Assembly: GCA_003598975.1 (NCBI GenBank)
Contig: QZIJ01000131.1
Location: forward strand, 23,360-87,359
Direction of reading: 5' to 3'
From: Anaerolineaceae bacterium
Lineage (GTDB): Bacteria; Chloroflexota; Anaerolineae; Anaerolineales; Villigracilaceae
DNA: 64,000 nucleotides
The notes under the pieces are model-generated. The model was given only the letters and a program-made list of their open reading frames with translations. It was not told where the DNA came from and did not search any database. Of this stretch, positions 19,966-60,198 are shown one piece after another (position 1 is the stretch's first letter; the number at the start of each line of letters is the position of its first letter). The position numbers were made by a program, and so were the translations under genes.

Positions 19966-20077
19966 GAGGAGATTATACCCGCCCCGAAATGTTTATACTG
20001 CACTCGGTCAAAAATTGCGCTTTTTTAGAAGGCGGAAAGCACAATTTTTGACCGTGAGTATTCTATGATAAACTACG

Positions 20078-20110
20078 AGAAATCGGGTTTCTTCAAGAAA
20101 CCCGATTTCT
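20078..20110. repeat. AGAAAnCGGGTTTCT double palindrome
   Basis: AGAAATCGGGTTTCT-TCA-AGAAACCCGATTTCT; relative at 44956-44990. Confidence 0.65.
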
Positions 20111-20121
20111 GGAGAGCACCA

Positions 20122-20670
20122 ATGTCCCGTGAATTCTACGAAATCGAAATCGCTGGAATCAAACGCGAACTGCGCCTGTTCGAGATCAAGCCCGGACTGC
20201 GGATCGCCATTCTGAACATCCTCGGCGATACGGAACTCGTCCAGGCTTGCGCGCGGGAACTGGGAGCGAAACTCAACGGCACGAAATTCGACGTGCTGGT
20301 GACCGCGGAGGCCAAGTCCATTCCGCTGGCGTACGCGCTCGCGGTGGAGATGAACAAGCCCTACATCGTCCTGCGGAAAACGTACAAGCCCTACATGGGC
20401 GACGCGTTGAAAGCCGGGACGTTGTCCATTACCACCGGCCAACCCCAGATCCTCGTGTTGGACGAGAAAGACCGCGATTTCATGAAGGGTAAAAAAGTCT
20501 TGCTGGTGGACGATGTCATCAGCACGGGTTCCACCCTGCAGGGCATGAAGATGGTGATCGGGAAGGCTGGGGCAGAGGTGGTTGGCGAAGCGGCCATCCT
20601 CACCGAAGGGGACCGCTCCCAGTGGATGGATATCGTCTCGCTGGGGCATTTGCCGTTGTTTACGGAGTAG
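20122..20670 (+). CDS. Purine (adenine) phosphoribosyltransferase family protein
   Basis: PRPP-binding motif VLLVDDVISTGST; EAKSIP, LRK. Confidence 0.88.
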   Translation: MSREFYEIEIAGIKRELRLFEIKPGLRIAILNILGDTELVQACARELGAKLNGTKFDVLVTAEAKSIPLAYALAVEMNKPYIVLRKTYKPYMGDALKAGTLSITTGQPQILVLDEKDRDFMKGKKVLLVDDVISTGSTLQGMKMVIGKAGAEVVGEAAILTEGDRSQWMDIVSLGHLPLFTE

Positions 20671-20764
20671 GTGGGCAGGTAGGCAAGTAGACAGGTAAAC
20701 AAAGAGCCTTCCAAATTTGGGAGGCTCTTTTGACTCGTGTACTTGTTTACGTGTCTTCTTGTGT
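20667..20764. repeat. Degenerate 8-mer tandem arms (GTAnACAn) flanking a bidirectional terminator
   Basis: GTAGGCAAGTAGACAGGTAAACAA, hairpin AAAGAGCC...GGCTCTTTT, then inverted CTCGTGTACTTGTTTACGTGTC. Confidence 0.6.
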
Positions 20765-21004
20765 GCTTTCAACCATTTTTCTTTTTTGTTCATGGGGCAA
20801 TTTTTTGATAACCCGTTCCCGTTTCATTGCCTCTGCTCGCGAGGATAGTTCCTCCACATAAACCAATCTCACCGGGCGACGCGTGCGGGTGTATTTTGCG
20901 CCTCGCCCGGCGTTGTGCTGTCTCTCGCGGCGTGGCGGATCGGTCGTCCAGCCGGTGTAGAACGTCCCGTCAGCGCATTCGAGGATGTAGCAGTAAAAAG
21001 CCAT
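20747..21004 (-). CDS. Small GIY-YIG nuclease (UPF0213/YhbQ-like)
   Basis: YCYIL...FYTGWT...RERQHN.G.GAKYT...E...A.KRE..IKK. Confidence 0.88.
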   Translation of the reverse strand: MAFYCYILECADGTFYTGWTTDPPRRERQHNAGRGAKYTRTRRPVRLVYVEELSSRAEAMKRERVIKKLPHEQKRKMVESTQEDT

Positions 21005-21014
21005 GCTTCGTAAG

Positions 21015-21103
21015 GTGGTCGAGTAGGCGGCAGGTCTCGATACGGGTTTCGGTACGCTTCACTACTCAACCCTACTCGACTATCGCCGCCGTACCGAGAC
21101 CAC
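21015..21103. repeat. Triple-nested GGTCGAGTAG/CGTATCGAGACC palindromic element
   Basis: Outer unit 21015-21103, middle unit 21033-21081, inner unit 21045-21071. Confidence 0.8.
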
Positions 21104-21119
21104 GATTTCTGTTCACAAC

Positions 21120-22124
21120 TTATTCGTCGCGTTTGGAATTGCCGAGGGAGCCGAAGAACGATTGCTTTAGCCGCGCGCCAAACGAGGAATTGTCGGAGGT
21201 TTTTCCTTTTTCCATCCACCCAGGCGGACGATACGCTTCCAGGTGACGGTCAATCAGCCAATCGAGGGCCTTCTCCTGTGCCGCGCGGATTTTCTTCTCC
21301 AGTTCGTCGCCTTGCTCATTTTGGATGTCTTCGCGCAGTCCGCGCAGGGACGCGATGTACGCGTCCAGCAGGCGGACGAGGTTGTCGCGGTTCGCCAAAG
21401 CCGAGGCGCTCAACCCGTCCGCTTGGTTGCGGTCGAAGGTGGCCGCGACCGGCATGGCGTAGGACCGACTCGCCAGGTTGATGGCGTCCTTCCAGCCGGG
21501 TTTATCCATCGTCAGGTCCACGAGCGAAACCGCCAGCAGTTTGGGCAGGGTCAGCATGGTGGAGAGTAATCCGTCCGCTTCGATGGCATCCGAAAGGACA
21601 GGGTTCGCACCGAGCAGGAGCACGAAGTCCGTGGCGACGCGTACCGCTTTTTCCGACAGGCCCGCCGAAGGACAGACTAGACAGGTGGTGTCCGCAAAAA
21701 GTTCGGCGTGTGCGCCGTCGAGACCGCCGCCGGTTTCGAGCAGGTGTGCGGGATTGATGGCGGGATAAAGCCCGAGATAACTGCGTCCCGCGGGGAGGAG
21801 TTCGCGTGCCCACGCCTCACCCTGACGTTTGGCGGGAGAGGCGTCCAGAACGATCGCGTCCTCTTTCAGGTCTGCGCGGATGAATTCGAGCGTGGCACGC
21901 ACCTCGTTCAGTGGAACGGCCAGCACAACCACGTCCGACCCTTCCACCGAGGCGGGCAGGTTGTACTCGATTCTGTCCACTGCGTCGGCCTTCTGTGCGG
22001 CGCGGGCGGCGTCGGGGTCCTTGTCATGTCCCACGCGTTTGATCTTGTCCTTGTGCGCGGCCAGCGCCAGCCCGATCGAGCCGCCGATCTGTCCGAGACC
22101 GATGATGGTTACTTGAACTGCCAT
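21120..22124 (-). CDS. Prephenate dehydrogenase-like (TyrA family) protein
   Basis: IIGLGQIGGSIGLAL Rossmann motif, LAVP, D..xK; canonical HP motif not seen. Confidence 0.75.
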   Translation of the reverse strand: MAVQVTIIGLGQIGGSIGLALAAHKDKIKRVGHDKDPDAARAAQKADAVDRIEYNLPASVEGSDVVVLAVPLNEVRATLEFIRADLKEDAIVLDASPAKRQGEAWARELLPAGRSYLGLYPAINPAHLLETGGGLDGAHAELFADTTCLVCPSAGLSEKAVRVATDFVLLLGANPVLSDAIEADGLLSTMLTLPKLLAVSLVDLTMDKPGWKDAINLASRSYAMPVAATFDRNQADGLSASALANRDNLVRLLDAYIASLRGLREDIQNEQGDELEKKIRAAQEKALDWLIDRHLEAYRPPGWMEKGKTSDNSSFGARLKQSFFGSLGNSKRDE

Positions 22125-33380: not shown

Positions 33381-33521
33381 CGTCATTGCGAGCGATGGTC
33401 GAGTAGCGTTTTTTGCGTATCGAGACCGAGCGAAGCAATCCCCACGTTTGAGGCGATTGCTTCGCCGCCTCGGTCTCGATATGCCTTCGGCCTACTCGAC
33501 CAGCGGCGTTTCGCAATGACG
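33381..33521. repeat. GTCATTGCGAG...CGCAATGAC palindrome with a GGTCGAGTAG unit nested in each arm
   Basis: Nested units at 33397-33427 and 33472-33501. Confidence 0.8.
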
Positions 33522-60083: not shown

Positions 60084-60198
60084 TCCGTCATTGCGAGGAG
60101 CGGTTTTTGCGACGAAGCAATCTACGCACACTGAGAGATTGCTTCGCTCGGTCTCGATACGGACTTCGTCCTACTCGACCTTCGCTCGCAATGACGGA
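60084..60198. repeat. GTCATTGCGAG palindrome with one nested GGTCTCGATAC/CTACTCGACC unit
   Basis: Nested unit at 60150-60180 in the right arm only. Confidence 0.8.

What the first reader, a model, noticed from the sequence alone, without database searches (positions are those of the whole stretch)
20747..21103. Three-layer nested palindrome directly upstream of a small GIY-YIG nuclease: candidate nuclease-associated repeat system
Seen: about 10 bp upstream of the GIY-YIG start codon (21004), three copies of one unit are nested, each in the loop of the previous one. The outer unit is GTGGTCGAGTAG...CGTACCGAGACCAC (21015-21103). The middle unit is inverted, GGTCTCGATACG...CTACTCGACT (21033-21081). 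The inner unit is GGTTTCGGTACG-CTTCA-CTACTCAACC (21045-21071). The same unit recurs at 33397, 33472 and 60150. Known: REP/REPIN elements are spread by a flanking RAYT HUH nuclease. Inference: this unit inserts preferentially into hairpin loops, and the adjacent stand-alone GIY-YIG protein could be its cognate nuclease, a RAYT-like arrangement built on a different fold. UPF0213 GIY-YIG genes are widespread, so one adjacency could be chance.
Basis: partly seen in the sequence, partly recalled or inferred. Interest (0 to 1): 0.8.

Follow-up and report, generated by a model that had tools for sequence, protein, structure and literature searches.

The report
Nested hairpins, wrong nuclease next door
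A three-layer "Russian-doll" DNA hairpin has landed beside an ordinary, vertically inherited nuclease gene, while the hairpin family's likely partner is a different small GIY-YIG nuclease that sits between these hairpins in related bacteria, a variant of the recently described Ssn nuclease/hairpin system.

Summary
The nested palindrome is real (21015-21103). Its unit "U" (GGTYGAGTAG-variable hairpin-CGTAYCGARACC) has 40 exact matches in this genome and 0 in the reversed control. The adjacent gene is probably a bystander. It is a UPF0213-type GIY-YIG next to prephenate dehydrogenase and/or phosphoribosyltransferase in 45 of 48 orthologous loci. U flanks only 2 of those 48, and most congeners have an empty spacer.

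A different GIY-YIG clade ("T3") has U beside 32 of 33 loci, on both sides in 26, and the pairing extends to Actinomycetota. T3 is missing from this 84%-complete assembly but present in a close congener.

Nesting is systematic. 23 of 59 U units lie inside other hairpins, and all 20 inside two other families share the host's polarity. The three-layer composite recurs (6 copies, 4 of 121 genomes), so it likely arrived pre-assembled.

T3 likely cuts the folded single strand and seeds spread; this is untested. The system is a new variant of Ssn/NTS. This scan has noted hairpin-flanked non-Ssn GIY-YIG genes before on other DNA.

The parts
21015..21103 (+). Three-layer composite of U hairpins; outer unit on +. 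An insertion into the spacer between the prephenate dehydrogenase and GIY-YIG genes.
   Evidence: Sequence; same composite at G000:C13 and in 3 other genomes; filled in G122 and G124, empty in 10 congeners; filled and empty forms in public contigs
21033..21081 (-). Middle U unit, inverted relative to the outer; its variable slot is exactly the inner unit
   Evidence: intact left arm in congeners
21045..21071 (-). Inner minimal U unit. Its loop is a GCGAAGC-type mini-hairpin in congeners, changed by one base in the window.
   Evidence: mini-hairpin stability from PMC13037366 (passages)
20747..21004 (-). 85-aa stand-alone GIY-YIG of the UPF0213/Slx1-like, vertically inherited type (clade W); probably a bystander
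   Evidence: PF01541; PDB 1ywl E 9.8e-21 and 1zg2 E 1.5e-19; synteny 45 of 48, U 2 of 48
21120..22124 (-). Prephenate dehydrogenase family gene directly upstream in the same orientation; its stop is 5-7 nt from the GIY-YIG start in the closest empty alleles
20065..20670 (+). Adenine phosphoribosyltransferase, the convergent conserved neighbour
   Evidence: NF005592 above cut-off; synteny
33382..33520 (.). Inverted doublet of S-family hairpins (GTCATTGCGAG...GAAGCAATC), each holding a U unit in its loop (U at 33397-33427 + and 33472-33501 -)
60137..60195 (-). S-family hairpin holding a U unit (60150-60180) in its loop, same polarity

Best explanation
The element is a three-layer composite of a dispersed hairpin (U) that likely arrived pre-assembled in the spacer upstream of a syntenic UPF0213-type GIY-YIG gene, which is probably a bystander, while U's likely partner is a separate small GIY-YIG clade (T3) that it flanks in other genomes. 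Shown: the insertion, the recurrence of the composite, the tight U-T3 linkage, U nesting in other hairpins with fixed polarity, and fast turnover of U sites between close species. Inferred: U folds as single-stranded DNA, with a stem, tandem sheared G.A pairs, a bulge and a freely exchangeable inner hairpin. T3 would recognise and nick the folded strand as SsnA does its NTS hairpin. Host repair (microhomology or template switching) would then copy hairpin modules into new sites, often into the variable slot of another hairpin, which builds the Russian dolls. U copies persist, or hitch-hike inside S and C hairpins, after T3 is lost.
For: Clade specificity within 300 bp: W 2 of 48 loci with U, T3 32 of 33 (26 both sides), T2 0 of 19 (13 have C hairpins); Ssn-like clade 0 of 30 (26 have S hairpins). 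W, T2 and T3 are separate starred clades. W loci share neighbours in 982 of 1128 pairs, T3 in 91 of 528 (T3 loci were shorter). All 31 T3-positive genomes of 121 carry U (median 18); the 90 T3-negative ones have median 1 and 38 have none. G124, one of two congeners sharing the filled site, has 75 matches and a T3 gene with U doublets 5' and a U 3'. Across phyla, U flanks T3 relatives in 29 of 30 Chloroflexota and 4 of 5 Actinomycetota loci, and hairpin type is clustered on the protein tree (U: 6 changes against shuffled mean 29). The stem co-varies (C-G 169, T-A 123 of 313), and the insert ends pair in 281 of 313 against 114 shuffled. Empty alleles exist, and 41 of 48 alignable U sites of G124/G122 lack a full U in G000.
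Against: There is no biochemistry; every mechanistic step is inferred from Ssn by analogy. No T3 gene was found in G000 (84% complete). 24 of 90 T3-negative genomes still have 10 or more copies, including single-contig G046 (25 copies, only W and UvrC) and G111 (48 copies). No clean single-unit insertion with a target duplication was found; only one microhomology junction was seen (L329). The window's geometry resembles T3 loci: antisense and 12 nt from the ATG, against antisense in 28 of 31 and 19-35 nt in 27 of 31. The composite is conserved across three species (3 substitutions in 89 against 18-24% at four-fold sites). Genomes are related, so the p-values overstate.
Confidence: 0.65

Rival explanations
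1. T3 and U travel together as a cassette and T3 binds U (for example for autoregulation or control of recombination, as for Neisseria SsnA), but U spreads through host repair or by hitch-hiking inside S and C hairpins, not through T3 cutting.
For: Many U-rich genomes lack T3. T3-negative genomes with T2 or the Ssn-like gene have more U (median 8.5, n=32) than those with neither (median 0, n=58). 20 of 59 U in G000 lie inside S or C hairpins. Mobilisation has not been shown even for Ssn in the parts of PMC11893778 that I read.
Against: 36 of 59 U in G000 are free-standing. U reaches high copy number in genomes lacking T2 and the Ssn-like gene too, and all T3-positive genomes have U.
Confidence: 0.2
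2. The window's W-clade nuclease is, or in this lineage is being recruited as, the cognate enzyme of U; the conserved hairpin upstream would be its binding or autoregulatory site.
For: Geometry like T3 loci. The composite is retained and conserved in G000, G122 and G124. G000 has no T3, and single-contig G046 has 25 copies with only W and UvrC. Catalytic Y, R, H and E positions are present.
Against: U is near 2 of 48 W loci and never on both sides. 22 of 47 W-only genomes have no U. G093 has 36 copies without W. G124, which shares the filled site, has its own T3. The same spacer holds an S hairpin in G118. Arms are also conserved at retained sites beside ordinary genes. W lacks the Q-(I/V)-x-(G/N)-(W/G)-S-R-x-K stretch shared by T2, T3 and the Ssn-like protein.
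Confidence: 0.07
3. U is a classical GTAG REP mobilised by a RAYT/Y1 HUH transposase.
For: U contains GTAG and forms inverted doublets (8 such clusters). G000 has three Y1_Tnp matches.
Against: None of the three Y1 loci has a U arm within about 1.5 kb. GTAG is internal to the U stem, whereas REP GTAG is an unpaired terminal tag (PMC3733652, parts 1-2). Genes bracketed by U in U-rich genomes looked by eye like unrelated host genes, apart from T3.
Confidence: 0.04

Closest known systems
Ssn nucleases (SsnA, CDD cd10448) with NTS/SRM hairpins; Chenal et al. 2025, PMC11893778 (read: parts 1-2 of 11, section 10, passages; no supplements)
   Same: A small single-domain GIY-YIG gene bracketed by copies of a dispersed, oriented, imperfect hairpin; gene presence tracks repeat abundance; each homologue has its own hairpin. 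The T3/U pair has this layout.
   Different: T3 and W are separate from the Ssn-like protein of this genome (long branch). U does not match the SRM motif (0 of 59). The text has no hit for cd10456, UPF0213 or Chloroflex-. I saw no account of nesting in the parts read. The window's own gene lacks the layout.
REP/REPIN/BIME repeats with RAYT (Y1 HUH) transposases; Di Nocera et al. 2013, PMC3733652 (read: parts 1-2 of 8 and passages; Figure 1 consensus sequences not visible)
   Same: Dispersed short hairpins, single or in inverted doublets, mostly intergenic, fast turnover; the paper notes some REPs inserted within other palindromes.
   Different: No RAYT is linked to U; GTAG is internal, not a terminal tag; the partner has a GIY-YIG fold. 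I could not compare U with the 24 GTAG consensus sequences directly.
Stand-alone prokaryotic Slx1-like / UPF0213 GIY-YIG proteins (PDB 1ywl, 1zg2; Dunin-Horkawicz et al. 2006, PMC1564403, passages)
   Same: The window's protein is closest to these and is syntenic and mostly single-copy, consistent with the vertical descent that paper describes.
   Different: T2 and T3 also hit these structures (T3) but are patchy, lie in varied neighbourhoods and are hairpin-flanked.

Membership tests
Ssn/NTS system | Small single-domain GIY-YIG protein with catalytic residues | tested here: met
   W 85 aa and T3 about 95 aa, PF01541 only substantial domain; conserved Y, R, H, E columns
Ssn/NTS system | Gene flanked by its hairpin, often on both sides (window gene, clade W) | tested here: not met
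   2 of 48 loci, 0 on both sides
Ssn/NTS system | Gene flanked by its hairpin, often on both sides (clade T3) | tested here: met
   32 of 33 loci, 26 on both sides; 29 of 30 Chloroflexota and 4 of 5 Actinomycetota loci
Ssn/NTS system | Hairpin fits the SRM degenerate motif | tested here: not met
   0 of 59 U units; also 0 of 146 S units, so the motif is narrow
Ssn/NTS system | Protein belongs to CDD cd10448 / the Ssn clade | tested here: inconclusive
   No CDD available. W and T3 separate from the Ssn-like L002 in the tree, but L002 is a long branch and its cd10448 label is my recall
Ssn/NTS system | Site-specific cleavage of ssDNA only | not testable with these tools
   Needs purified protein
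REP/REPIN-RAYT | Y1 HUH transposase gene flanked by the repeat | tested here: not met
   0 of 3 Y1 loci in G000 have U arms
REP/REPIN-RAYT | Unpaired terminal GTAG tag | tested here: not met
   GTAG lies inside the stem, behind a co-varying GGTY/RACC helix
REP/REPIN-RAYT | Dispersed singlets and inverted doublets | tested here: met
   44 clusters (a few loose false positives), 8 strict inverted doublets
UPF0213 / stand-alone Slx1-like GIY-YIG | Similarity to 1ywl/1zg2 and vertical, syntenic inheritance (window gene) | tested here: met
   E 9.8e-21 and 1.5e-19; a strong hit in 107 of 121 genomes; synteny 45 of 48

The most novel reading that the evidence does not exclude
Anaerolineales host an ecosystem of at least three small GIY-YIG nucleases, each with its own ssDNA hairpin (U/T3, C/T2, S/Ssn-like). 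Their hairpins share an exchangeable inner slot, so modules are copied into one another with fixed polarity and composite Russian dolls then spread as units, letting one family's hairpin hitch-hike on another family's enzyme. A fourth hairpin that inserts at the exact CGTA^TCGA bond of U may mark the nick site. This would be a GIY-YIG-driven, target-duplication-free mode of modular DNA mobility not described in the papers I found.
Probability: 0.35. Interest if true: 0.75.

Novelty: new variant of a known kind. Interest (0 to 1): 0.5.

Why it matters
It corrects a tempting false adjacency and points to the right enzyme. T3 is a roughly 95-aa candidate site-specific ssDNA nuclease outside the described SRM specificity, with a defined, structured target and a predicted cut site, so it can be tested directly and may be useful as a tool. 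Three clade-specific nuclease/hairpin pairs in one bacterial family, with polarised nesting, offer a clean system for an open question: how short palindromic repeats without a RAYT arise and spread.

Tried and rejected
- Window gene as cognate nuclease: rejected.
- RAYT link: none.
- Structured RNA: Rfam gave only three weak sub-threshold hits, none on the composite.
- Thermodynamic significance of the fold: not found.
- Another U-bracketed nuclease in U-rich genomes: 13 stretches between close U clusters were read by eye from translations and showed assorted host genes, no nuclease. No profile scan was run on them.
- T3 or a remnant in G000: none. The G124 T3 locus aligns with G000 on one flank only.
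- Target-site duplications: no convincing one for single U units. An imperfect 8-nt direct repeat around the composite in G122/G124 is ambiguous with stem extension.
- The GIY four-fold count was off frame and was redone.
- Literature: no paper held GIY-YIG + 'repetitive extragenic palindromic' + flanked or YhbQ + GIY-YIG; only Chenal et al. held Ssn + GIY-YIG + hairpin + single-stranded since 2025; the arm sequences appeared only in unrelated papers, by listing; searches gave nothing closer. Figures, supplements and most subscription papers were not seen, so absence from print is not shown.
- Sequence look-up in the scan's earlier findings found nothing.

Full report
1. Observation. Define unit U as left arm GGTYGAGTAG, a variable self-complementary insert, and right arm CGTAYCGARACC. 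The outer U is on + (21015-21103); the middle (21033-21081) and inner (21045-21071) are on -. The inner unit is exactly the insert of the middle one. The GIY-YIG ORF (20747-21004, -, 85 aa) starts 10 nt away. It lies between a prephenate dehydrogenase gene and a convergent adenine phosphoribosyltransferase gene. The window is G000:C19, a 3.94-Mb, 84%-complete assembly; close relatives of its repeat-linked proteins are titled Anaerolineales. G000 has 40 exact U matches and 0 in the reversed control; 83 of 121 genomes of the family carry U.

2. The neighbour is probably the wrong nuclease. G000 has three small GIY-YIG genes plus UvrC: the window gene (clade W), L003 (clade T2) and L002 (Ssn-like, a label from my recall). 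L003 and L002 are each bracketed on both sides by their own hairpin families, C and S. W matches the UPF0213 structures 1ywl and 1zg2 and has a strong hit in 107 of 121 genomes. I examined 48 of these loci: the top 30 hits including the window, plus 18 that I chose, many from U-rich genomes. 45 keep the dehydrogenase and/or phosphoribosyltransferase neighbour. U lies within 300 bp of 2 of 48 (the window and one downstream copy), never on both sides. A random 260-bp segment of G000 has U in its flanks 0.7% of the time, an underestimate for gene ends. Among genomes with W but no T3, T2 or Ssn-like gene, 22 of 47 have no U. G093 has 36 copies and only UvrC.

3. The likely partner. Searching with L003 exposed a third clade, T3. 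U flanks 32 of 33 T3 loci, 26 on both sides; T2 loci have U in 0 of 19 and C in 13. Ssn-like loci have U in 0 of 30 examined (of 55 matches) and S in 26. W, T2 and T3 are distinct starred clades, and W and T3 share 41% identity. The nearest upstream U is antisense in 28 of 31 T3 loci and 19-35 nt from the ATG in 27 of 31. T3 occurs in 31 of 121 genomes, all of which carry U (median 18). The other 90 have median 1, 38 with none but 24 with ten or more (kin are not independent). T3 neighbourhoods vary (91 of 528 pairs share a neighbour, against 982 of 1128 for W; T3 loci were shorter). In the 80 best of 566 GTDB relatives (some Chloroflexota rows probably duplicate the family loci), U flanks 29 of 30 Chloroflexota and 4 of 5 Actinomycetota genes. 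It flanks 0 of 16 cyanobacterial and 0 of 10 Bacteroidota genes, which mostly carry shorter relatives with the same YGAG...CGAR core. With looser patterns, 79 rows (one truncated row dropped) split into U 40, C 25, a Bacteroidota type 9, none 5. Hairpin type is clustered on the tree (U: 6 changes against shuffled mean 29; FastTree, modest support). T3 is not in the G000 assembly. G124, one of the two closest congeners, has 75 U matches and a T3 gene preceded by three U doublets and followed by a U.

4. History of this site. Of 12 congener loci, G122 and G124 carry the same composite at the same position and 10 do not; in G118 the same spacer holds an S hairpin instead. Public contigs at roughly 87-94% identity join 21006 directly to 21120 with 5 letters between in runs X1, X2 and X12 (X7 shows the same two-piece layout). 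X6 and X9 are filled. With the family-wide empty state as outgroup, this is a gain. The composite differs by 3 substitutions in 89 nt from G122/G124, against 18-24% at four-fold sites of the flanking genes, so it is under selection or gene conversion. Arms are also kept at retained sites beside ordinary genes. Turnover is otherwise fast: of 60 U loci fetched from G124 (55) and G122 (5), 12 had no alignable orthologue, and 41 of the other 48 lack a full U in G000. Seven of those hold a C or S hairpin instead.

5. Nesting. The three-layer composite occurs 6 times in 4 of 121 genomes from three genera: twice in G000, twice in G072 (one about 200 bp upstream of a T3 gene), and once each at an orthologous site in G035 and G060. 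Two-layer versions occur too. It therefore likely moves pre-assembled. In G000, 23 of 59 loosely matched U units sit inside a host hairpin (14 S, 6 C, 3 U). All 20 in S or C have the host's polarity, and S and C units cover 0.27% of the genome. The three families share inner inserts and loops, and orthologous U copies can differ only in the insert (L326). So 'exchange of a slot' describes the pattern better than 'insertion into a loop'. A fourth, near-perfect hairpin interrupts U at the same bond, CGTA^YCGA, in 11 distinct instances, including the G124 copy of this very composite.

6. Structure (inferred). Over 313 distinct units from the genome and fetched loci, the base before GAG pairs with the base after CGA (C-G 169, T-A 123, other 21). 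Insert ends pair in 281 (shuffled mean 114, maximum 138), and C-GAA-G is the commonest loop (36) (related sequences are counted separately). YGAG facing CGAR is the pyrimidine-GA-purine arrangement that forms tandem sheared G.A pairs in DNA hairpins (PMC10085684, passages). GCGAAGC is an exceptionally stable DNA mini-hairpin, and the RNA form of its close variant GCGAAAGC is much weaker than the DNA form (PMC13037366, passages). Both features work on one strand only, which would explain the fixed polarity and points to ssDNA. The fourth family's insertion bond is the predicted bulge beside the G.A pairs.

7. Mechanism. Most likely (0.65), T3 recognises and nicks folded U in ssDNA, as SsnA does NTS (PMC11893778), and host repair copies modules to new sites. 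The one readable junction (L329/C62, a 39-nt insertion inside a gene, sharing 6 terminal letters with the empty site) fits microhomology rather than cut-and-paste with duplication. None of these steps is shown. U can persist without T3 (G046, G111), and T3-negative genomes with T2 or the Ssn-like gene hold more U (median 8.5 against 0), which fits hitch-hiking. The rivals are T3 binding without mobilising (0.2), recruitment of W (0.07; the window's geometry and conservation are the points in its favour) and RAYT (0.04).

8. Comparison and verdict. The T3/U pair works like Ssn/NTS in layout but fails the SRM test and lies on another branch, so it is not filed as Ssn. It is not a RAYT/REP system. 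My paper searches found no description of U, T3 or polarised nesting; figures and supplements were not seen. Earlier unchecked notes of this scan describe similar non-Ssn GIY-YIG/hairpin pairs and nested hairpins in other genomes; the first of these look-ups led me to the Ssn paper. Verdict: real feature, wrong neighbour, new variant of a known kind; interest 0.5.

Noticed in passing
L280 (G124 orthologue of window 21015-21103); L372; G000:C149 site aligned to L369: A fourth hairpin family (CACYTGCA...TGCRGTG, near-perfect inverted repeat) is inserted at the same CGTA^YCGA bond of U's right arm in 11 distinct instances, and at GTCA^TTGC of the S family; no target duplication is evident. None was found in the window itself.
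   Followed up: partly
L002 (G000:C53:11786-12079) and L003 (G000:C10:20425-20733): Two other small GIY-YIG genes in this genome are bracketed on both sides by their own hairpin families, S (about 146 units) and C (about 95 units, with some chance matches); these are the genome's real nuclease/hairpin cassettes.
   Followed up: yes
L309 (G124:C129:113433-113645): T3 gene preceded by three tandem inverted U doublets and followed by one U: a BIME-like array and a good candidate for biochemistry.
   Followed up: partly
G000:C21:33798-34474 and L266 (G084:C59): A Nudix-like gene (my reading of the translation) has U copies on both sides in two genera, with different inserts; ordinary genes can also be bracketed by U.
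   Followed up: partly
window 20684-20761: Between the convergent phosphoribosyltransferase and GIY-YIG genes lies a 19-bp inverted repeat around a 15-bp terminator-like hairpin; related stretches occur elsewhere in congeners, probably another repeat family.
   Followed up: no
L290 (G118): The same dehydrogenase/GIY-YIG spacer holds an S-family hairpin instead of U; seven other orthologous sites also swap hairpin family between G124/G122 and G000, which suggests landing hot spots.
   Followed up: partly
G093 and G062: All 36 listed U matches in G093 are the T-A variant and all 33 in G062 the C-G variant, which suggests expansion from a founder or homogenisation within a genome.
   Followed up: no
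L363, L324 (G124): U doublets nested inside longer inverted-repeat elements of about 210-240 bp; L363 has a possible 7-8-nt duplication against the empty G000 site.
   Followed up: no
L007 (G000:C51:19209-19547) and L005 (G000:C20): Y1/RAYT-like genes; L007 is flanked by long inverted repeats unrelated to U.
   Followed up: no
L326/G000:C122, L329/G000:C62, L220, L221: U units and composites also sit inside open reading frames, apparently without breaking them.
   Followed up: partly
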